Positions 31,721 through 63,752 of a stretch of DNA of 64,000 nucleotides are shown one piece after another (the first letter of the stretch is position 1; every line of letters begins with the position of its first letter). The DNA is from Escherichia coli (GTDB taxonomy: Bacteria > Pseudomonadota > Gammaproteobacteria > Enterobacterales > Enterobacteriaceae). The position numbers and the translations under genes are program-made. The stretch is taken from the NCBI RefSeq assembly GCF_024298765.1, contig NZ_CP101210.1; one strand, given 5' to 3'. The notes beneath the pieces are model-generated. The model did not search any database, was not told where the DNA came from, and saw only the letters and a list, made by a program, of their open reading frames with translations.

Positions 31721-31957
31721 ATGATTTGTCCACGTTGTGCCGATGAACAGATTGAAGTGATGGCGAAATCGCCGGTAAAAGATGTCTGGATGGTCTACCA
31801 GTGCCAGCATTGCCTCTATACCTGGCGCGATACCGAACCGCTACGCCGCACCAGCCGCGAACATTATCCCGAAGCGTTCCGCATGACGCAGAAAGATATT
31901 GATGACGCGCCGATGGTGCCGAGCATCCCGCCGCTGCTGGCGGAAGGTAAGCGCTAA
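31721..31957 (+). CDS. ecdD: small subunit of the phenolic acid decarboxylase (YclD-like, Cys-rich)
   Basis: 78-aa ORF with CxxC...CxxC spacing, directly downstream of the UbiD-like gene. Confidence 0.65.
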   Translation: MICPRCADEQIEVMAKSPVKDVWMVYQCQHCLYTWRDTEPLRRTSREHYPEAFRMTQKDIDDAPMVPSIPPLLAEGKR

Positions 31958-31958
31958 A

Positions 31959-31990
31959 TAAAAGGTCCGATGCCCATCGGACCTTTTATT
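31959..31990. terminator. Bidirectional Rho-independent terminator between convergent ecdD and ygbN
   Basis: Stem AAAGGTCCGATG / CATCGGACCTTT flanked by an A-run on one side and a T-run on the other. Confidence 0.65.
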
Positions 31991-31994
31991 AAGG

Positions 31995-33359
31995 TCAAAT
32001 TACCGCCCATACGCACCAGGTAATTAAGAATCCGGTAAAACCGAGAATGGTCGTTAACACTGTCCAGGTTTTCAGACCGTCTGCTACCGACAACCCCAGA
32101 TATTTGGTCACAATCCAGAACCCTGAGTCATTAATATGTGACGCACCAAGCCCACCAAAGCAGGCTGCCAGCGTCACCAATACGCACTGAATCGGATTCA
32201 ATCCCATCACCGCTTCTGAGAGTAACCCGCCGGTTGTCAGGATTGCTACGGTTGCTGATCCCTGCGATGCACGCAGCGCCAGTGAAATAATAAATGCGGC
32301 TGGTAACAGAGGCAGGTCAATCATTTGTAGCATGTTGGCAAGGGCTTTGCCGACGCCCGATTCCACCAGCACTTTGCCAAATACCCCTCCAGCACCAGTA
32401 ACCAAAATCACTACCGCCGCAGTGGGAAGGGCTGAGCCCATAATGTCGCTGGTGTGTTGTAAGCTCCAGCCGCGACGTAAAGCCAATAACCAGAATGCCA
32501 GCACCAGCGCAATCATTAGAGCTACCATTGGTGAGCCGATCAGCTGTAGCGTACCAAGCAGGGGATGCGAAGGCGGCATCAGTGTTGCGGAAACCGTACC
32601 CGCCATGATAATCGCGATAGGAATAACAATTAGCGAGGTGACCAGCGCGACGCCCGGTGGATTTATTTTATCGCTTAATTTTGTCGCGCCTTCCTCACTG
32701 GCCGGAGCCAGTTGCATCTGTTCCAGTACCTCGACCGACATCGCATATTGGCGCTTATTGATTATTTTCGCTGCAAAGTAGCCAACAATCCCTACGGGAA
32801 TAGAAATCGCAATACCGATGATGGTTAGCCAGCCGATGTCTGCGTGGAGTAACCCCGCTGCGGCGACAGGGCCTGGATGCGGCGGTACCGCCACGTGAAC
32901 AGTGAGCATGATCCCAGCGACAGGCAGGCCAAATTTGAGTGGTGATATTTTGGCAACCTTGGCAAAACCGTAAATGATTGGCGCAAGAATAATAAAGCCG
33001 ACATCAAAGAAGACGGGAATACCGAGGAAGAACGCTGCCAGAGTCAGCGCAGCGATAGTTCGTTTGTCGCCTAACTTGCGACTGAAATAATTAGCCAGTG
33101 ACTCTGCACCACCAGAGTGTTCGATCATACGCCCCAGCATAGCGCCCAGACCAATAATAATAGTGACGGAACCAAGCACACCGCCCATCCCGGCGATCAT
33201 CACTTTACCCACTTCGCCCGCCGGTATACCCGCCGCAAGTGCGACTAACAGGCTGACGAGGAGCAGAGCAACGAATGGTTGTACCTTTGCCTTGATGACC
33301 AGCAGCAACAGCATGATTACGCCAGCTAACGCAATGCATAACAATGTAATTGTGGACAT
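31995..33359 (-). CDS. ygbN: GntP-family permease YgbN
   Basis: 454-aa polytopic membrane ORF recognised as YgbN. Confidence 0.85.
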   Translation of the reverse strand: MSTITLLCIALAGVIMLLLLVIKAKVQPFVALLLVSLLVALAAGIPAGEVGKVMIAGMGGVLGSVTIIIGLGAMLGRMIEHSGGAESLANYFSRKLGDKRTIAALTLAAFFLGIPVFFDVGFIILAPIIYGFAKVAKISPLKFGLPVAGIMLTVHVAVPPHPGPVAAAGLLHADIGWLTIIGIAISIPVGIVGYFAAKIINKRQYAMSVEVLEQMQLAPASEEGATKLSDKINPPGVALVTSLIVIPIAIIMAGTVSATLMPPSHPLLGTLQLIGSPMVALMIALVLAFWLLALRRGWSLQHTSDIMGSALPTAAVVILVTGAGGVFGKVLVESGVGKALANMLQMIDLPLLPAAFIISLALRASQGSATVAILTTGGLLSEAVMGLNPIQCVLVTLAACFGGLGASHINDSGFWIVTKYLGLSVADGLKTWTVLTTILGFTGFLITWCVWAVI

Positions 33360-42509: not shown

Positions 42510-44588
42510 TTAAATCAATGCCGATTTATCAATTCCCAGTCGCTTCATTCGTGACAGCAGAGTCGTGCGTTTCAGCCCCAGACGTTGCGCAGCGCCTTTA
42601 GGCCCGGCAACCACGCCGTTTGTTTCTTTCAGCACGCGAACAATCAACTGATATTCATCTTCGCCCTCCTGGGCGACAACCGTTGCGGCAGGCGGCGTTT
42701 CAGGTTCTGGTAAAGCAATATCTGGCAATGACAGCTGCAGCACGTTGCCGCGTGTTAGCAATACCGCGCGCTCAATGACGTTTTCCAGCTCACGCACGTT
42801 GCCCGGCCATTCCATGTTGCTCAGGATGCGCAGCGTCTCGGCAGGAATGCTGTCGATATTGCGCCCCAGACGACGGGCAATTTTGAAGGTAAAGGCTTTC
42901 GCCAGCAGCGGAATATCTTCCGGACGCTCGCGTAGTGGCGGCAGGTGGATCGGGAATACGTTCAGACGGTAATAGAGATCGCTACGGAACTCTCGGTCGG
43001 CGACCATTTTTTTCAGATCGCGGTTAGTCGCGGCAATTAAACGTACGTCCGTCTGAATGATTTTGTTGCTGCCGAGACGTTCAAACTCCTGTTCCTGTAA
43101 TACACGCAGCAACTTCGGCTGTAACTCCAGCGGCATATCGCCCACTTCATCGAGGAATAGTGAGCTTTTATCCGCCAGTTCAAAACGACCAATGCGCTGA
43201 GCGCTGGCACCGGTAAAAGCCCCACGCTCATGACCAAATAGATCGCTTTCCAGCAATCCGGCAGGCATCGCCGCGCAGTTCATTTTGACCATGCGGCGAT
43301 TATTACGCCCACTGAGATTATGGATCGCGCGGGCAATCAGCTCTTTACCTGTACCAGTTTCACCGAGGATCAGAACGGTACTGTCACTTTGCGCCACCAT
43401 TTCAACTTGTTTAAGTACGCTGTACATGGCTTCGCTGCGGCCAATAATCTCGCCAAATTCACTATCAACATTGTTGAGCTGCTCGGTCAGGGCGAGGTTT
43501 TCATCAACCAGCCGTTCTTTCAGACGATGAATTTCCTGATAGGCGAGGGCGTTATCGACAGCGATTGCCACACGTTCGGCAATCTGGCGCAGTAAATTCA
43601 GATTGGTAGTGGTAAAGACTTTCTCTTCGCATTGCGCCAGTTTTAGCACGCCCAGCATAGTGTCGCCAGACATCAGCGGTAACAGGCACAAGGTTTGAAT
43701 CTGGTTGCCCCAGGTGTTGAACAACATGCGTTCATAGGGGGCTAAATCGTCCCGCTCGTGGAGATTAATCAACAGCATCTCTTTACTTTTGAAGACGCGT
43801 TCGGTGAGGGTTCCGGCTTCATCGACTTCGCTCTGTTCGTGGGCGGGATGCTGTTTATCAAGATAGTGAGTGGAGTAGATGTTGAGTTTGTTTTTACGGT
43901 GGCTGCGTAAGACGATGCTGATATCGTCAATGTCGAAATAGTAATGGATTTCTTTGGCGACTTCGCTGACCAGTTCGTCCATATCCAGGCGGGAAAGCAC
44001 CGCGTTAGTGATGGCGACCAGGATGCGGAAGTTATCGCGTTCCCGGCATAACAACTCATAGTCGACATTGTTAACGACGCGGCTCTGGATTTGTTCGGTG
44101 ACGACAGAAACGATCTGCGTAAATGTTTGCAGACGATTGAACTCTTTTTCGCTCCAGGGGCGATCGTCATGACGAATAAATTCACAGCCACCAAAAATAT
44201 GCCCTTCCGCCGCCAGTGGCATCAGGCAATAGTGACCAAATTTGGGGTATAGCCCACCTGTGGCCAGCTGCGGCCAGGTTTCACAAAATTCTTCGTAACT
44301 GCAATGCAGCGTATCAGGGCGCGACAAAATGCTGCGTACCGGACCGTGTGCCAGAACAGTTTCGTCTTCATATTTAATGGGGGTGTCTTTTTCACGCGAT
44401 GCGTAATAAGACGCACGTTGAGTCTGCGCTTGCCACAACACAATAGCCGCGTTGTCGGCGAGCGCAGAACGCTTTACCAGTTGCGAAAGAGCCTCACACA
44501 GCGAGGCCAGATCGGGCTGCTGCAATAGTGTCCGAGTGATGTCGAACAACCCTTGCTGTCCGAGATCACTCATCGGTGTATATGACAT
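42510..44588 (-). CDS. fhlA: formate hydrogenlyase transcriptional activator FhlA (sigma-54 dependent)
   Basis: Track ORF 42510..44624; likely 692-aa protein from MSYTPMSDLGQQGLF; AAA+ sigma-54 activator motifs (GETGTGKE, GAFTGA) and C-terminal HTH. Confidence 0.9.
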   Translation of the reverse strand: MSYTPMSDLGQQGLFDITRTLLQQPDLASLCEALSQLVKRSALADNAAIVLWQAQTQRASYYASREKDTPIKYEDETVLAHGPVRSILSRPDTLHCSYEEFCETWPQLATGGLYPKFGHYCLMPLAAEGHIFGGCEFIRHDDRPWSEKEFNRLQTFTQIVSVVTEQIQSRVVNNVDYELLCRERDNFRILVAITNAVLSRLDMDELVSEVAKEIHYYFDIDDISIVLRSHRKNKLNIYSTHYLDKQHPAHEQSEVDEAGTLTERVFKSKEMLLINLHERDDLAPYERMLFNTWGNQIQTLCLLPLMSGDTMLGVLKLAQCEEKVFTTTNLNLLRQIAERVAIAVDNALAYQEIHRLKERLVDENLALTEQLNNVDSEFGEIIGRSEAMYSVLKQVEMVAQSDSTVLILGETGTGKELIARAIHNLSGRNNRRMVKMNCAAMPAGLLESDLFGHERGAFTGASAQRIGRFELADKSSLFLDEVGDMPLELQPKLLRVLQEQEFERLGSNKIIQTDVRLIAATNRDLKKMVADREFRSDLYYRLNVFPIHLPPLRERPEDIPLLAKAFTFKIARRLGRNIDSIPAETLRILSNMEWPGNVRELENVIERAVLLTRGNVLQLSLPDIALPEPETPPAATVVAQEGEDEYQLIVRVLKETNGVVAGPKGAAQRLGLKRTTLLSRMKRLGIDKSALI

Positions 44589-48326: not shown

Positions 48327-48438
48327 TGTTGATTATCCCTGCGGTGAATAATGTCGATGATGTCGAAATGACACGTCGACACGGCGACGAAATTCATCTT
48401 TAGCTTAAAAATCGCTTTAATAACAATAAATTAAAAGT

Positions 48439-48490: not shown

Positions 48491-48952
48491 ATGACTATTT
48501 GGGAAATAAGCGAGAAAGCCGATTACATCGCACAGCGGCATCGTCGCCTACAGGACCAGTGGCACATCTACTGCAATTCGCTGGTTCAGGGAATCACGTT
48601 ATCGAAAGCGCGCCTGCATCACGCCATGAGCTGCGCGCCGGACAAAGAACTCTGTTTCGTCCTTTTTGAACATTTTCGTATTTACGTCACCCTGGCGGAT
48701 GGCTTTAACAGCCACACCATCGAGTATTACGTCGAAACAAAAGATGGTGAAGACAAACAGCGGATTGCGCAGGCGCAACTGAGCATTGACGGCATGATTG
48801 ATGGCAAGGTCAACATCCGCGATCGCGAACAGGTTCTGGAACACTATCTCGAAAAAATCGCTGGCGTTTACGACAGCTTATACACCGCCATTGAAAACAA
48901 TGTGCCGGTGAATTTAAGCCAACTGGTAAAGGGACAAAGCCCGGCAGCATGA
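48491..48952 (+). CDS. hycA: formate hydrogenlyase regulatory protein HycA
   Basis: 153-aa ORF recognised as HycA. Confidence 0.9.
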   Translation: MTIWEISEKADYIAQRHRRLQDQWHIYCNSLVQGITLSKARLHHAMSCAPDKELCFVLFEHFRIYVTLADGFNSHTIEYYVETKDGEDKQRIAQAQLSIDGMIDGKVNIRDREQVLEHYLEKIAGVYDSLYTAIENNVPVNLSQLVKGQSPAA

Positions 48953-49076
48953 GCTGAGGCTTTGCCCGTTTTGCAGGCGTTACGCCTGTTTGGGGATGGG
49001 CGTGTCGATGAGTGTCGAAAATGACATTTCATCGGCATGTTTTCGTCAAAAATGACAATCACCTGAGGAATGCCTG

Positions 49077-56510: not shown

Positions 56511-59401
<2,891 letters not shown>

Positions 59402-59486
59402 CGGATTTTATCCTGTTATCAGTAGGGTAGATGTAGTAGTTATCAGTCGACGTGACGGAAAAATGCCGATGCTGAAACGGAATTAA

Positions 59487-59498
59487 GAAACCGGTTTC
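59487..59498. promoter_or_regulatory. Candidate AscG operator 1 (perfect palindrome GAAACCGGTTTC)
   Basis: 12-bp perfect dyad in the ascF/ascG divergent region, GalR/LacI-type operator shape. Confidence 0.5.
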
Positions 59499-59560
59499 AC
59501 AAAATCATGAATAGTTGTCACTAAATAAGCAAGAGAGTTAATTGTTCATTTTTTATATTT

Positions 59561-59574
59561 GTGAAACCGGTCAC
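59561..59574. promoter_or_regulatory. Candidate AscG operator 2 (GTGAAACCGGTCAC)
   Basis: Imperfect dyad related to the first site, 74 bp downstream. Confidence 0.45.
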
Positions 59575-59660
59575 CTGAATATTTTTCCCGCCGATTGCGC
59601 AAGGACAATCGGCAAACGGTGCAGTACACTGCGTTGATTACGTGTAAAGGGATGAAAATG

Positions 59661-60671
59661 ATGACGACGATGCTGGAAGTGGCGAAGCGCGCCGGGGTTT
59701 CAAAAGCGACCGTTTCCCGCGTGCTTTCAGGTAATGGCTACGTCAGCCAGGAGACTAAAGATCGCGTGTTTCAGGCGGTAGAAGAGAGCGGTTACCGTCC
59801 AAACTTGCTGGCGCGCAATCTGTCGGCGAAGAGTACTCAGACGCTGGGGCTGGTCGTGACCAACACGCTTTACCATGGCATTTATTTTAGTGAATTACTG
59901 TTTCATGCCGCGCGAATGGCGGAAGAGAAAGGGCGACAGTTGCTATTGGCAGATGGTAAACATAGCGCCGAAGAAGAGCGCCAGGCGATTCAGTATCTGC
60001 TGGATTTGCGCTGCGACGCCATCATGATTTACCCGCGCTTTTTAAGCGTGGATGAGATTGATGACATCATTGACGCACACAGTCAGCCGATAATGGTGCT
60101 TAATCGCCGCCTGCGCAAAAACAGCAGCCATAGCGTCTGGTGCGATCATAAACAGACCAGCTTTAACGCCGTGGCAGAGTTGATAACCGCCGGACATCAG
60201 GAGATTGCTTTCCTTACCGGCTCGATGGATTCCCCCACCAGCATTGAACGTCTTGCCGGATATAAAGACGCGCTGGCGCAGCATGGTATTGCGTTCAATG
60301 AAAAACTTATCGCTAACGGTAAATGGACGCCTGCCTGCGGGGCCGAAGGGGTAGAAACGTTGCTCGAACGTGGGGCTAAATTTAGCGCGTTAGTTGCCAG
60401 TAACGACGATATGGCGATAGGTGCGATGAAAGCGTTGCACGAGCGCGGCGTAGCGGTGCCAGAGCAGGTGTCAGTTATCGGATTCGATGATATCGCTATT
60501 GCCCCCTACACCGTTCCGGCGCTCTCCAGCGTAAAAATTCCGGTGACTGAGATGATTCAGGAAATAATTGGGCGGCTGATATTTATGCTCGATGGTGGTG
60601 CTTACACACCGCCGAAAACCTTCAGCGGAAAACTGATCCGCCGCGACTCCCTCATTGCTCTTTCGCGATAA
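59661..60671 (+). CDS. ascG: LacI/GalR-family repressor AscG
   Basis: Track ORF 59595..60671; likely start at MTTMLEVAKRAGVSKATVSRV (336 aa); ATG codons at 59652/59658/59661 make the exact start uncertain. Confidence 0.85.
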   Translation: MTTMLEVAKRAGVSKATVSRVLSGNGYVSQETKDRVFQAVEESGYRPNLLARNLSAKSTQTLGLVVTNTLYHGIYFSELLFHAARMAEEKGRQLLLADGKHSAEEERQAIQYLLDLRCDAIMIYPRFLSVDEIDDIIDAHSQPIMVLNRRLRKNSSHSVWCDHKQTSFNAVAELITAGHQEIAFLTGSMDSPTSIERLAGYKDALAQHGIAFNEKLIANGKWTPACGAEGVETLLERGAKFSALVASNDDMAIGAMKALHERGVAVPEQVSVIGFDDIAIAPYTVPALSSVKIPVTEMIQEIIGRLIFMLDGGAYTPPKTFSGKLIRRDSLIALSR

Positions 60672-60684
60672 ACATTGTCATCAC

Positions 60685-60719
60685 ATGTCATCGTCACTAG
60701 TGTCGATGACATCGTTTTT
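60685..60719 (+). other. 9-bp perfect inverted repeat ATGTCATCG...CGATGACAT followed by T-run (putative ascG terminator and/or regulatory site for hydN)
   Basis: Inverted repeat with 10-nt spacer and downstream TTTTT read from the sequence; function inferred. Confidence 0.35.
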
Positions 60720-60819
60720 CCTGCATTACAGAATTTAATTTCTTTAAATAACAGTAAATTAAAAACTGGCATGATTTGTGAATGTATCGGCGCATTAACT
60801 GTCATTGCTGGAGAATTTG

Positions 60820-61347
60820 ATGAACCGTTTCATCATTGCTGACGCGAGTAAATGTATTGGTTGCCGTACCTGTGAAGTGGCGTGCGTGGTTTCTCATCAG
60901 GAAAATCAGGACTGTGCATCGCTGACCCCGGAAACTTTTTTACCGCGAATCCATGTCATTAAAGGTGTGAACATTTCCACGGCGACAGTTTGCCGTCAGT
61001 GTGAAGATGCACCGTGCGCTAACGTCTGTCCGAATGGTGCTATCAGTCGTGATAAAGGGTTTGTTCATGTGATGCAGGAACGTTGTATTGGTTGCAAAAC
61101 CTGCGTTGTGGCTTGCCCGTATGGCGCGATGGAAGTGGTGGTACGTCCGGTGATTCGCAACAGCGGCGCGGGGCTGAATGTACGGGCTGACAAAGCCGAA
61201 GCCAATAAATGCGACCTCTGTAACCATCGTGAAGACGGCCCGGCGTGTATGGCGGCTTGCCCGACCCATGCGCTGATTTGTGTCGATCGTAATAAACTTG
61301 AACAACTGAGTGCAGAAAAACGTCGCCGTACGGCGCTGATGTTCTAA
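60820..61347 (+). CDS. hydN: electron transport protein HydN (4Fe-4S ferredoxin-type)
   Basis: Track ORF 60805..61347; likely start ATG 60820 ([22 protein letters not shown]), 175 aa. Confidence 0.9.
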
Positions 61348-61499
61348 AAATCTTACTGAACTGTTCTGGCATCAAAGGAATTCCCGGAAATATTCGTAGA
61401 ATACGGAGCGGGCGGTATCGCCGACCTGTGATTGCCGGATACGACGCTGTCGTGTCCGGCAGGGCGGGTTACGCAATTCATGATGGCGGGAATAACTCA

Positions 61500-63752
61500 A
61501 TGGCAAAAAACACATCTTGCGGTGTCCAACTGCGTATTCGTGGCAAAGTGCAGGGCGTCGGTTTTCGTCCGTTTGTCTGGCAGCTAGCACAGCAATTAAA
61601 TCTTCACGGCGATGTCTGTAATGACGGCGATGGAGTGGAAGTCCGGCTGCTGGAAGACCCGGAAACGTTTCTTGTGCAGTTGCATCAGCACTGCCCGCCG
61701 CTGGCGCGTATTGATAGCGTCGAGCGTGAGCCGTTTATCTGGTCACAACTGCCCACCGAGTTCACTATACGCCAGAGCACAGGCGGCACCATGAATACGC
61801 AAATTGTTCCCGATGCCGCGACTTGCCCTGCCTGTCTTGCCGAAATGAATACCCCAGGCGAACGACGCTGGCGTTATCCGTTTATCAACTGTACTCACTG
61901 TGGTCCGCGTTTCACCATTATTCGCGCGATGCCTTACGACCGCCCGTTTACCGTGATGGCGGCGTTTCCGCTGTGTCCGGCCTGTGACAAAGAATATCGC
62001 GACCCGCTCGATCGTCGCTTCCACGCCCAGCCGGTGGCCTGCCCGGAGTGTGGCCCACATCTTGAATGGGTAAGTCATGGTGAACATGCAGAACAAGAGG
62101 CGGCATTACAGGCAGCTATCGCACAGTTAAAAATGGGCAACATTGTCGCCATCAAAGGGATTGGCGGATATCATCTTGCCTGCGATGCACGTAACAGTAA
62201 CGCGGTGGCGACACTGCGGGCGCGCAAACATCGCCCGGCGAAACCGCTGGCGGTTATGTTGCCAGTGGCAGAAGGTTTACCAGACGCTGCCCGTCAGTTG
62301 CTTACCACACCCGCCGCGCCGATTGTGCTGGTGGATAAAAAATACGTTCCTGAGCTTTGTGATGATATCGCCCCTGGCCTTAACGAAGTTGGGGTGATGT
62401 TGCCTGCGAACCCGCTCCAGCATTTGCTGTTACAGGAACTGCAATGCCCGCTGGTGATGACCTCCGGCAACCTGAGCGGTAAACCACCGGCTATCAGCAA
62501 CGAACAGGCGCTGGCGGATTTGCAGGGCATTGCCGACGGATTCTTGATACATAACCGCGACATCGTGCAGCGGATGGATGATTCGGTGGTGCGCGAAAGC
62601 GGCGAAATGCTGCGCCGTTCGCGGGGGTATGTGCCGGATGCGCTGGCTTTGCCTCCGGGCTTTAAAAATGTTCCGCCTGTGCTGTGTCTCGGCGCGGATC
62701 TGAAAAATACCTTCTGCCTGGTGCGCGGTGAACAAGCGGTGTTGAGCCAGCATCTGGGCGATTTAAGTGACGATGGCATCCAGATGCAGTGGCGCGAAGC
62801 GTTACGCCTGATGCAAAACATCTACGATTTCACTCCGCAATACGTTGTGCATGACGCGCATCCGGGCTATGTCTCCAGCCAGTGGGCGCGCGAAATGAAT
62901 CTGCCGACGCAAACGGTGCTGCATCATCATGCTCATGCGGCGGCGTGTCTGGCAGAACATCACTGGCCGCTGGATGGCGGTGATGTCATTGCGTTGACGC
63001 TCGACGGTATCGGTATGGGGGAGAACGGCGCTTTATGGGGCGGCGAGTGCCTGCGGGTGAACTATCGCGAATGCCAGCACCTGGGCGGCTTGCCAGCGGT
63101 GGCGCTTGCTGGTGGCGATTTGGCGGCGAAGCAGCCGTGGCGTAACCTGCTGGCGCAGTGCCTGCGCTTTGTGCCGGAGTGGCAGAATTACCCTGAAACG
63201 GCAAGTGTGCAACAGCAAAACTGGAGCGTGCTGGCGCGGGCCATTGAGCGTGGAATTAACGCGCCGCTGGCGTCATCGTGTGGGCGTTTGTTCGATGCTG
63301 TGGCGGCGGGACTGGGCTGTGCGCCAGCCACGTTAAGTTATGAAGGTGAAGCGGCTTGTGCGCTGGAGGCGCTGGCGGCTTCGTGCCACGGCGTGACGCA
63401 TCCGGTGACGATGCCGCTGGTGGACAATCAACTGGATCTCGCCACTTTCTGGCAGCAGTGGCTGAGCTGGCAGGCTCCGGTTAATCAACGCGCGTGGGCG
63501 TTTCATGATGCGCTGGCGCAGGGTTTTGCCGCGTTGATGCGTGAGCAGGCCACGATGCGGGGTATCACTACGCTGGTATTTAGCGGCGGAGTTATTCATA
63601 ACCGTTTGCTGCGTGCACGTCTGGCGCATTATCTTGCTGATTTTACGTTGCTCTTCCCGCAGAGTTTACCGGCGGGCGATGGTGGATTGTCTCTGGGGCA
63701 GGGGGTTATTGCTGCGGCGCGCTGGTTAGCGGGTGAAGTCCAGAACGGATAA
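61500..63752 (+). CDS. hypF: carbamoyltransferase HypF (hydrogenase maturation)
   Basis: Track ORF 61428..63752; likely start ATG 61500 ([24 protein letters not shown]), 750 aa; acylphosphatase, zinc-finger CxxC pairs, YrdC and Kae1-like regions. Confidence 0.9.

What the first reader, a model, noticed from the sequence alone, without database searches (positions are those of the whole stretch)
60685..60780. Perfect 9-bp inverted repeat and a weak sigma-54-like element upstream of hydN
ATGTCATCG-N10-CGATGACAT followed by TTTTT lies just after the ascG stop; it could terminate ascG and/or be an activator site for hydN-hypF. A TGGCAT element at 60759 is a weak -24-like box with a poor -12 element. 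The control architecture of hydN-hypF is not clear from sequence alone.
Basis: seen in the sequence. Interest (0 to 1): 0.25.

Follow-up and report, generated by a model that had tools for sequence, protein, structure and literature searches.

The report
Known FhlA/sigma-54 control region of hydN
The inverted repeat and the TGGCAT box are the upstream activator site and the sigma-54 promoter of the E. coli hydN-hypF operon, a control region already described in the literature, so the finding is real but ordinary.

Summary
The window is E. coli. The 148-bp ascG-hydN spacer differs from K-12 at two bases.

The repeat is real, and larger than reported: a 28-bp near-perfect palindrome at 60685-60712. 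TGGCAT is at 60767, not 60759.

CTGGCATGATTTGTGAA (60766-60782) is letter for letter the sigma-54 ChIP-seq site published for hydN. That paper flags it as an EcoCyc-confirmed promoter (PMC4591121), which puts the start site near 60793.

In 80 Enterobacteriaceae species the palindrome arms are almost invariant: TGTCATCGTCA-N4-TG(A/T)CGATGACA. This holds whether ascG or hycI lies upstream. Its distance to TGGCA takes only two values, about 58 or 68 bp. The T-run that follows it is kept in Escherichia and Salmonella and only sporadically elsewhere.

Its centre, CGTCA-N4-TGTCG, has the same layout as the fdhF and hyc FhlA sites.

Best reading: an FhlA enhancer centred near -95, with a likely IHF-type A/T block, driving a deliberately weak sigma-54 promoter. 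A weak ascG terminator role is possible in E. coli but secondary.

Already known; low interest.

The parts
60669..60671 (+). ascG stop codon (TAA). It lies 5 nt before the first enhancer half-site.
   Evidence: ORF 59595..60671. RefSeq annotates it as ascG. It matches the LacI/GalR family.
60677..60683 (.). Upstream third half-site GTCATCA. Other genera have GTCGTCA or GTCGACA here.
   Evidence: Columns -8 to -2 carry 0.7-1.8 bits across 80 species, in fixed register with the palindrome.
60685..60712 (.). 28-bp palindrome ATGTCATCGTCACT|AGTGTCGATGACAT, proposed as the FhlA enhancer (UAS) of hydNp. The conserved core is 60686-60711. The inverted hexamers TCGTCA (60691-96) and TGTCGA (60701-06) are 10 bp apart centre to centre. 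The dyad lies about 94.5 bp upstream of the predicted start site.
   Evidence: I3; 0.025 such palindromes expected per window; the arms are invariant in 80 species whatever the upstream gene; spacing to TGGCA is 57-60 or 67-70 only; same YGWCR-N4-TGWCR layout as the hyc, hycB and fdhF sites.
60715..60719 (+). T5 run, 2 nt after the palindrome. Together with the hairpin it is a possible weak intrinsic terminator for ascG read-through.
   Evidence: -13.6 kcal/mol. The columns after the palindrome carry only 0.04-0.64 bits across species. The run is kept in Escherichia and Salmonella, with similar runs in a few other loci (L057, L066, L073, L075).
60747..60764 (.). A/T-rich block AATAACAGTAAATTAAAA, abutting the -24 element. 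The IHF-like core TAACAGTAAATTA is at 60749-60761. Proposed as a DNA-bending (IHF) site.
   Evidence: The same 18-mer, with one R position, occurs in the window only here and just upstream of the hycA -24 box (0.01 expected). It is conserved as AATAACAR/AAATCAAT-N4-TTAAAA across genera. IHF binding is inferred, not shown.
60766..60782 (+). Sigma-54 promoter hydNp, CTGGCATGATTTGTGAA. GG is at 60768-69 (-25/-24). The -12 element is TGA (60779-81) in place of TGC.
   Evidence: Exact match to ChIP-seq motif OS26 for hydN in E. coli MG1655: FAT 11, PSSM 9.175, EcoCyc flag 'C'. RpoN gSELEX peak in the hydN/ascG spacer. The Salmonella orthologue is bound by sigma-54 and induced 13-fold. TGG is invariant across 27 genera.
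60793..60793 (+). Predicted transcription start, 27 nt before the hydN ATG.
   Evidence: Motif centre 60774 plus 19 gives 60793. This reproduces the 'distance 27' in Table 1 of PMC4591121. It was not mapped here.
60810..60813 (+). Shine-Dalgarno GGAG of hydN.
   Evidence: Invariant in alignment A1.
60820..61347 (+). hydN coding sequence, first gene of the regulated operon.
   Evidence: NF007658 HydN, 383.5 bits. RefSeq annotation.
61500..63752 (+). hypF coding sequence, second gene of the operon.
   Evidence: TIGR00143 HypF, 1051 bits. The start is placed by K-12 spacing.
42510..44588 (-). fhlA, the gene for the activator proposed to bind the palindrome. It lies about 16 kb away in the same window.
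   Evidence: NF011958 FhlA equivalog, 1545.6 bits, residues 13-704 of the ORF.

Best explanation
The region 60677-60793 is the control region of the hydN-hypF operon. The palindrome and the half-site just upstream of it form an enhancer (UAS) for the formate-responsive activator FhlA. Its dyad is about 94.5 bp upstream of the start site.

Sigma-54 RNA polymerase sits in a closed complex on CTGGCATGATTTGTGAA (60766-60782). This promoter has a good -24 element and a poor -12 element. The A/T-rich block between the two, shared with the hycA promoter, probably binds IHF or is intrinsically bent. That would loop FhlA onto the polymerase.

With formate present, FhlA hydrolyses ATP, opens the complex, and transcription starts near 60793.

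Shown by published data: sigma-54 binding at this exact sequence, and FhlA/formate dependence of the operon. Shown here: conservation, phasing and motif similarity. Inferred: that FhlA physically contacts this palindrome, and that IHF binds the A/T block.
For: 1. The spacer differs from K-12 at 2 bases, so K-12 data apply.

2. The sigma-54 ChIP-seq motif for hydN is identical to 60766-60782, and that paper flags it as an EcoCyc-confirmed promoter. A gSELEX RpoN peak lies in the hydN/ascG spacer. The Salmonella orthologue is bound by sigma-54 and induced 13-fold by a promiscuous activator.

3. Reviews place hydN-hypF in the FhlA/formate regulon (the table).

4. In 80 species, palindrome positions 2-11 and 16-26 are almost invariant. 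The flanks fall to 0.04-0.64 bits.

5. The palindrome is present whether ascG or hycI is upstream, and in an asc-less E. coli strain.

6. The distance from the dyad to TGGCA is 67-70 bp in 50 loci and 57-60 bp in 30 loci. None falls at 61-66. The fdhF site sits at 78. These are steps of one helical turn.

7. Variation at positions 9 and 18 is T/A in 52 loci, T/T in 25 and A/T in 3. This follows the W degeneracy of the FhlA matrix, not base pairing.

8. YGWCR-N4-TGWCR hits the hyc-hyp, hycA-hycB (twice) and hydN sites, with 16 matches against 4.6 expected. Its only hit in 4 kb around fdhF is upstream of fdhF.

9. TCGWCA hexamers occur 2-3 times in each of the four regions, against 1.6 per kb in the window. 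TGTCGATGA is shared with both hyc sites.

10. fhlA is encoded in the window.
Against: No direct FhlA-binding data for this DNA could be retrieved. Maier 1996, Leonhartsberger 2000 and Skibinski 2002 are not held.

The published 14-nt FhlA matrix gives the palindrome centre only 6.9 bits, the top 0.14% of window positions.

The published 16-mer consensus CATTTCGTACGAAATG mismatches at 8 of 16 positions. Known FhlA regions also mismatch it at 5-7 positions.

The sigma-54 box is not exceptional by score, ranking 16th in the window.

The FhlA paralogue HyfR, or another regulator, could use the same site.

The IHF-like core is centred near -38, close to the polymerase footprint, so its role is uncertain.
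Confidence: 0.8

Rival explanations
1. The palindrome plus T-run is the Rho-independent terminator of ascG, or of whatever is transcribed from upstream. On this reading its conservation reflects RNA hairpin function. It could hold as well as the enhancer role, or instead of it.
For: The element sits 14 nt after the ascG stop. As RNA it folds to -13.6 kcal/mol: z = -2.1 in a 54-nt context and -3.7 in a 42-nt context. A T5 run follows within 2 nt.

The T-run is kept in Escherichia, in asc-less E. coli and in Salmonella, where hycI reads towards it.

The pair flanking the invariant core covaries (A-T, C-G, G-C). It is Watson-Crick in 57 of 80 loci against 30 expected.
Against: The T-run is missing in most genera that have ascG directly upstream, including Citrobacter, Klebsiella, Enterobacter and Kluyvera. 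The columns after the palindrome carry 0.04-0.64 bits.

The arms are conserved as sequence rather than through compensatory changes. 25 of 80 loci carry a T.T mismatch in the stem.

The hairpin is weaker than the clear terminator at 31957-31990, which folds to -20.4 kcal/mol with z = -6.6. The consensus terminator scan did not call it.

Helical phasing to the promoter has no meaning for an RNA element.

No ascG 3' end appears in the one 3'-end data set that could be searched. That is weak evidence, because ascG is poorly expressed.
Confidence: 0.25
2. The palindrome is the operator of a different DNA-binding protein. Candidates are AscG (a LacI/GalR-type repressor acting at the end of its own gene), HyfR, or an unknown regulator. 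On this reading FhlA acts from elsewhere.
For: It is a long, symmetric, sequence-conserved site typical of a dimeric regulator. FhlA binding to it is not documented in any text that could be read. It fits the published FhlA matrix and consensus only moderately.
Against: It is conserved in genomes without ascG next to it: Salmonella, Cedecea and asc-less E. coli.

It lacks the central CG of LacI/GalR-type operators (from general knowledge, not tested here).

It shares its hexamers and 6-4-6 layout with all three other FhlA-controlled regions examined.

No other conserved candidate enhancer exists between the upstream gene and the promoter.

HyfR is a close FhlA paralogue, so cross-binding would be a variant of the main explanation rather than a rival.
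Confidence: 0.07
3. The inverted repeat and the TGGCAT box are chance features of an A/T-rich spacer with no function.
For: A perfect 9-nt inverted repeat is common in the window: 23 seeds against 6.9 expected. About 15 other window positions score as well as this sigma-54 box.
Against: A 28-bp palindrome is expected 0.025 times per window. The arms are invariant across 80 species. Sigma-54 binding is published, both in vivo and in vitro.
Confidence: 0.01

Closest known systems
FhlA upstream activating sequences of fdhF, hyc and hyp (E. coli formate regulon)
   Same: The site lies about 95 bp upstream of a sigma-54 start site. It contains inverted TCGWCA / TGWCGA hexamers 10 bp apart. The core CGTCA-N4-TG(T/A)CG matches the fdhF core CGTCA-AAAC-TGACG in layout. 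TGTCGATGA is shared with both hyc sites. The site is one or two helical turns closer to the -24 box than the fdhF site.
   Different: The hydN site is a much more regular and longer palindrome (26-28 bp, plus a third half-site) than the hyc or fdhF sites. Its spacer is not A-rich, so it scores only 6.9 bits on the published matrix. FhlA binding to it was not verified here.
Sigma-54 (-24/-12) promoters, e.g. hycAp and hypAp in the same window
   Same: It has TGGCA at -24 and correct spacing to a TG at -13/-12. Sigma-54 occupies it in vivo. The 18-bp A/T block just upstream of -24 is nearly identical to that of hycAp.
   Different: The -12 dinucleotide is GA instead of GC. It is GT in Salmonella, and GC in Klebsiella and Kluyvera, where the -24 box is degenerate instead. 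ChIP enrichment is about 10-20 times lower than at hycA and hypA: FAT 11 against 91 and 201.
Rho-independent (intrinsic) terminators, e.g. the hairpin at 31957-31990 in this window
   Same: A stem-loop followed by a T-run, directly after a stop codon.
   Different: The stem is only 4/9 G+C and carries an internal T.T mismatch. The T-run starts 2 nt after the stem and has 5 T. Free energy is -13.6 against -20.4 kcal/mol. The T-run is not conserved in most genera.

Membership tests
Sigma-54-dependent promoter | GG at -24/-25 within a TGGCAC-like box | tested here: met
   TGGCAT at 60767-72. TGG is invariant in 27 genera.
Sigma-54-dependent promoter | GC at -12/-13 (TTGCW), with its G twelve bases downstream of the first G of the -24 GG | tested here: not met
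   The sequence is GTGAA: TG is present but C is replaced by A, costing 2.2 bits at that position. The spacing is correct.
Sigma-54-dependent promoter | Occupied by sigma-54 holoenzyme | not testable with these tools
   Published data: ChIP-seq OS26 with the identical 17-mer, gSELEX, and Salmonella ChIP-chip with a 13-fold induction.
Sigma-54-dependent promoter | Matrix score clearly above background | tested here: inconclusive
   10.9 of 21 bits, rank 16 of about 128,000 positions in the window.
FhlA enhancer (UAS) | Located roughly 80-120 bp upstream of a sigma-54 start site, on a fixed helical face | tested here: met
   The dyad is at -94.5. The distance to TGGCA is 57-60 or 67-70 bp in 80 species, and 78 bp at fdhF.
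FhlA enhancer (UAS) | Matches the published 14-nt FhlA matrix (PMC7658346, Table 2) | tested here: inconclusive
   The centre CGTCACTAGTGTCG scores 6.9 bits, the top 0.14% of positions. Known hyc sites score 12-17.5 bits. The degenerate form YGWCR-N4-TGWCR is matched.
FhlA enhancer (UAS) | Matches the published consensus CATTTCGTACGAAATG (Leonhartsberger 2000, as cited in PMC4987338) | tested here: not met
   The best match has 8 mismatches. The consensus also mismatches the known hyc, hycB and fdhF regions at 5-7 positions, so it does not discriminate.
FhlA enhancer (UAS) | Conserved with the regulated gene rather than with the upstream gene | tested here: met
   Present upstream of hydN in all 80 loci, whether ascG or hycI precedes it.
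FhlA enhancer (UAS) | Bound by FhlA and required for formate induction | not testable with these tools
   Reviews state that the operon is FhlA-dependent. No binding data for this site could be read.
Rho-independent terminator | Stable G+C-rich hairpin | tested here: inconclusive
   -13.6 kcal/mol, 4 of 9 G-C pairs, internal mismatch. z = -2.1 to -3.7.
Rho-independent terminator | U-tract directly after the stem, conserved among orthologues | tested here: not met
   T5 follows a 2-nt gap in E. coli. It is absent in most ascG-bearing genera, and the columns there carry 0.04-0.64 bits.
Rho-independent terminator | Mapped RNA 3' end | not testable with these tools
   No ascG or hydN entries in the searchable 3'-end supplements.
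IHF site | WATCAANNNNTTR core in an A/T-rich context between enhancer and promoter | tested here: inconclusive
   E. coli has TAACAGTAAATTA, one mismatch. Several genera have a perfect AATCAATAAGTTA. The block is shared with hycAp, and IHF is reported to activate hyc and hyp. Its centre near -38 is unusually close to the promoter.

The most novel reading that the evidence does not exclude
The palindrome works twice. As DNA it is the FhlA enhancer. As RNA, in transcripts arriving from ascG (or from hyc in Salmonella and asc-less strains), it forms a hairpin that terminates or stabilises the upstream message. This would insulate the formate-regulated hydN-hypF promoter from read-through.

The covarying pair flanking the invariant core, and the T-run kept in Escherichia and Salmonella, would be the trace of that second constraint.
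Probability: 0.2. Interest if true: 0.3.

Novelty: already known. Interest (0 to 1): 0.1.

Why it matters
It matters little beyond annotation. hydN-hypF has been an accepted sigma-54/FhlA-dependent operon of the formate regulon since the 1990s, and its -24/-12 site has been confirmed genome-wide.

The comparative analysis adds modest value in four ways:
- It pins the enhancer to 60677-60711.
- It shows a very regular 6-4-6 inverted-hexamer core (TCGWCA-N4-TGWCGA) that describes FhlA sites better than the published 16-mer consensus.
- It shows spacing in one-helical-turn steps (58, 68 and 78 bp).
- It shows that every lineage keeps one imperfect promoter element, which suggests selection for a weak, strictly activator-dependent promoter.

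Tried and rejected
- The sigma-70 and terminator consensus scan of 59400-61500 found nothing significant at the site. It gave one promoter-like hit, ATGACA-17-CAGAAT at 60706-60734, below the chance expectation, and no terminator call.
- The published FhlA matrix alone does not single out the site (6.9 bits).
- The published 16-mer FhlA consensus is uninformative even for known sites.
- The primary papers Maier 1996, Leonhartsberger 2000 and Skibinski 2002, and the EcoSal review, are not held. Whether FhlA binding to this palindrome has been footprinted could therefore not be checked.
- Two 3'-end mapping papers were queried for ascG and hydN. One had no entries and the other had no supplements held.
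- A literature search for FhlA ChIP data on hydN found none.
- An AscG operator was considered and rejected, because the site persists without ascG.
- Phasing of the hyc-hyp site was examined. Its candidate dyads lie at 80 or 61 bp, which does not fit the 58/68/78 series cleanly, so no claim is made for hyc.

Full report
**Identity of the region**

The window is Escherichia coli. A 1.1-kb query around the finding matches 5,425 of 5,426 complete E. coli genomes, and RefSeq annotates ascG and hydN under it. The gene order is the reverse of K-12: fhlA, hyp, hyc, ascBF, ascG, hydN, hypF. The 148-bp ascG-hydN spacer (60672-60819) differs from K-12 MG1655 at only two bases, 60734 and 60743. Both lie outside every element discussed here. 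Published K-12 data therefore apply directly.

**The observation**

- ATGTCATCG (60685-93), a 10-nt spacer, CGATGACAT (60704-12) and then CG-TTTTT (60715-19) are all present.
- They begin 14 nt after the ascG stop at 60669-71.
- The spacer contains CACTAGTG, itself a palindrome. The element is really a 28-bp palindrome with 13 of 14 complementary pairs.
- TGGCAT is at 60767-72, not 60759.
- A 9-nt inverted repeat alone is unremarkable: 23 seeds in the window against 6.9 expected.
- A 28-bp palindrome of this quality is expected 0.025 times per window. The only other one, at 31960, is a textbook terminator.

**The sigma-54 element**

On a matrix built from 186 sigma-54 promoters (PMC7658346, Table 2), TGGCATGATTTGTGAA scores 10.9 of 21 bits. 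It ranks 16th in the window, behind hypA (19.1) and hycA (15.35). The loss comes from the -12 element, which reads GTGA where TTGC is expected.

The binding evidence is published:
- The 17-mer CTGGCATGATTTGTGAA is exactly the motif under sigma-54 ChIP-seq peak OS26 upstream of hydN in MG1655: FAT 11, PSSM 9.175. That table flags it as an experimentally confirmed EcoCyc promoter (PMC4591121).
- The table's 'distance 27' places the predicted start at 60793.
- Reconstituted RpoN holoenzyme selects the hydN/ascG spacer in gSELEX (PMC8743547).
- In Salmonella the orthologous site TGGCACGATTCGTGTATA is bound by sigma-54, and hydN-hypF is induced 13-fold by a promiscuous activator (PMC3844500).
- Reviews state that hydN-hypF is co-transcribed and is enhanced by formate-FhlA as part of the formate regulon (PMC11841067; PMC4987338, citing Maier et al. 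1996).

**The palindrome: comparative evidence**

One scan of species-representative genomes with HydN returned 80 loci from more than 20 genera of Enterobacteriaceae. ascG lies directly upstream in most. In Salmonella, Cedecea, Intestinirhabdus, some Citrobacter and some Escherichia species, hycI or other genes lie upstream instead.

All 80 loci carry TGTCATCGTCA-N4-TG(A/T)CGATGACA upstream of hydN. Positions 2-11 and 16-26 carry 1.8-2.0 bits, apart from the A/T-variable position 18 at 1.07 bits. The four central bases vary freely. The columns after the palindrome fall to 0.04-0.64 bits. A third block, GTC(G/A)(T/A)CA, sits 2 nt upstream in fixed register. In E. coli it is GTCATCA at 60677-83.

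Within E. coli the spacer is present in 5,425 of 5,426 genomes at 95.9% identity or better. This includes about 730 genomes in which the ascG part of the longer query is not covered. In one such strain, which lacks the asc operon, homology starts at 60676, exactly at the upstream half-site. The palindrome there is perfect: TCGACA...TGTCGA.

**Why it is a DNA (protein-binding) element**

1. The arms are conserved as sequence, not through compensating changes.
2. The one frequent variation, at positions 9 and 18, is T/A in 52 loci, T/T in 25 and A/T in 3. It tolerates a stem mismatch but always stays A or T. That is what the published FhlA matrix shows at the centre of its TGWCR pentamers.
3. 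The distance from the dyad to TGGCA is 67-70 bp in 50 loci and 57-60 bp in 30 loci, with none at 61-66. Indels between enhancer and promoter are tolerated only in steps of one helical turn.
4. The element follows hydN rather than the upstream gene.

**Why FhlA**

- The centre CGTCA-CTAG-TGTCG has the same 5-4-5 layout (6-4-6 as hexamers) as the fdhF core CGTCA-AAAC-TGACG and the hycA-hycB sites TGTCG-AAAA-TGACA and CGTCA-AAAA-TGACA.
- The pattern YGWCR-N4-TGWCR gives 16 matches in the window against 4.6 expected. These include 48352, 49013, 49044 and 60692. Its only hit in 4 kb around fdhF lies upstream of fdhF, 78 bp from that promoter's TGGCA.
- TCGWCA/TGWCGA hexamers occur 2-3 times in each of the four regions, against 1.6 per kb overall.
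- The 9-mer TGTCGATGA (6 copies against 0.47 expected) is shared by the hyc-hyp, hycA-hycB and hydN sites.
- fhlA is encoded 16 kb away in the window (NF011958, 1545.6 bits).

Limits on this assignment:
- The published 14-nt matrix gives only 6.9 bits.
- The 16-mer consensus quoted from Leonhartsberger 2000 mismatches at 8 positions. It also mismatches the known sites at 5-7 positions.
- I could not read the primary papers that might contain a footprint.

**The A/T block**

AATAACAGTAAATTAAAA (60747-64) abuts the -24 box. It recurs in the window only immediately upstream of the hycA -24 box (alignment). Across genera it reads AATAACAR or AAATCAAT, then N4, then TTAAAA. In several genera it is a perfect WATCAANNNNTTR. 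IHF is reported to activate hyc and hyp. An IHF or bending role at hydN is my inference.

**The terminator alternative**

As RNA the element folds to -13.6 kcal/mol, with z = -2.1 to -3.7. The hairpin at 31957-90 folds to -20.4 kcal/mol with z = -6.6. The stem has 4 of 9 G-C pairs and an internal mismatch. The T5 run starts 2 nt after the stem, and the consensus scan did not call it.

The T-run is kept in Escherichia and Salmonella but is absent from most genera with ascG upstream. No 3'-end data could be found.

One point favours some hairpin selection. The pair flanking the invariant core covaries (A-T in Escherichia, C-G or G-C elsewhere). It is Watson-Crick in 57 of 80 loci against 30 expected under independence. 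Shared ancestry inflates this figure, and I leave it unexplained.

I give a secondary terminator or insulator role in E. coli about 0.2-0.25.

**Verdict**

The enhancer assignment of the palindrome has confidence 0.8. The sigma-54 promoter is effectively certain. Novelty: already known. Interest: low.

Noticed in passing
window 31957-31990: A perfect G+C-rich hairpin, AAAAGGTCCGATG/CATCGGACCTTTT, flanked by an A-run and a T-run. It folds to -20.4 kcal/mol with z = -6.6, and sits next to the 3' end of the minus-strand ORF 31995..33359. It looks like a textbook bidirectional intrinsic terminator. It is the only other 28-bp palindrome in the window.
   Followed up: partly
window 48560-48575 (+), inside hycA: TGGCACATCTACTGCA scores 15.1 bits on the sigma-54 matrix, as high as the hycA promoter itself (15.35). 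It may be an intragenic sigma-54 site upstream of hycB.
   Followed up: no
window 59595-60676; locus L083 1-2500: The asc region is not covered in about 730 of 5,426 E. coli genomes. In strain 2547, hycI is followed by three small ORFs and then hydN. Homology to the window begins at 60676, exactly at the upstream enhancer half-site, and the palindrome is perfect there (TCGACA/TGTCGA).
   Followed up: partly
window 60766-60782 and loci L003-L082, about 50 bp before hydN: Every lineage keeps one imperfect promoter element. E. coli, Citrobacter and Enterobacter have TGGCAY with a -12 of TGAA or TGTA. Klebsiella and Raoultella have TGGAAC with a canonical TGCA. Kluyvera has TGGCTC with TGCA. This suggests selection for a weak, strictly activator-dependent promoter.
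   Followed up: partly
window 60685/60712 and the orthologous columns in L003-L082: The base pair flanking the invariant palindrome core covaries: A-T in Escherichia, C-G or G-C in most other genera, T/C mismatch in Citrobacter. It is Watson-Crick in 57 of 80 loci against 30 expected if the columns were independent. The cause is unexplained. It could reflect RNA or DNA hairpin selection, or shared ancestry.
   Followed up: partly
window 9695, 40129, 55727 (-): Three further copies of TGTCGATGA lie outside the FhlA-controlled spacers. The 9-mer occurs 6 times in the window against 0.47 expected.
   Followed up: no
window 48345-48400, 49000-49060; L002 2990-3030: The widely quoted FhlA consensus CATTTCGTACGAAATG mismatches the experimentally studied hyc, hycB and fdhF regions at 5-7 of 16 positions. 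An inverted pair of TCGWCA hexamers 10 bp apart describes these sites better.
   Followed up: partly
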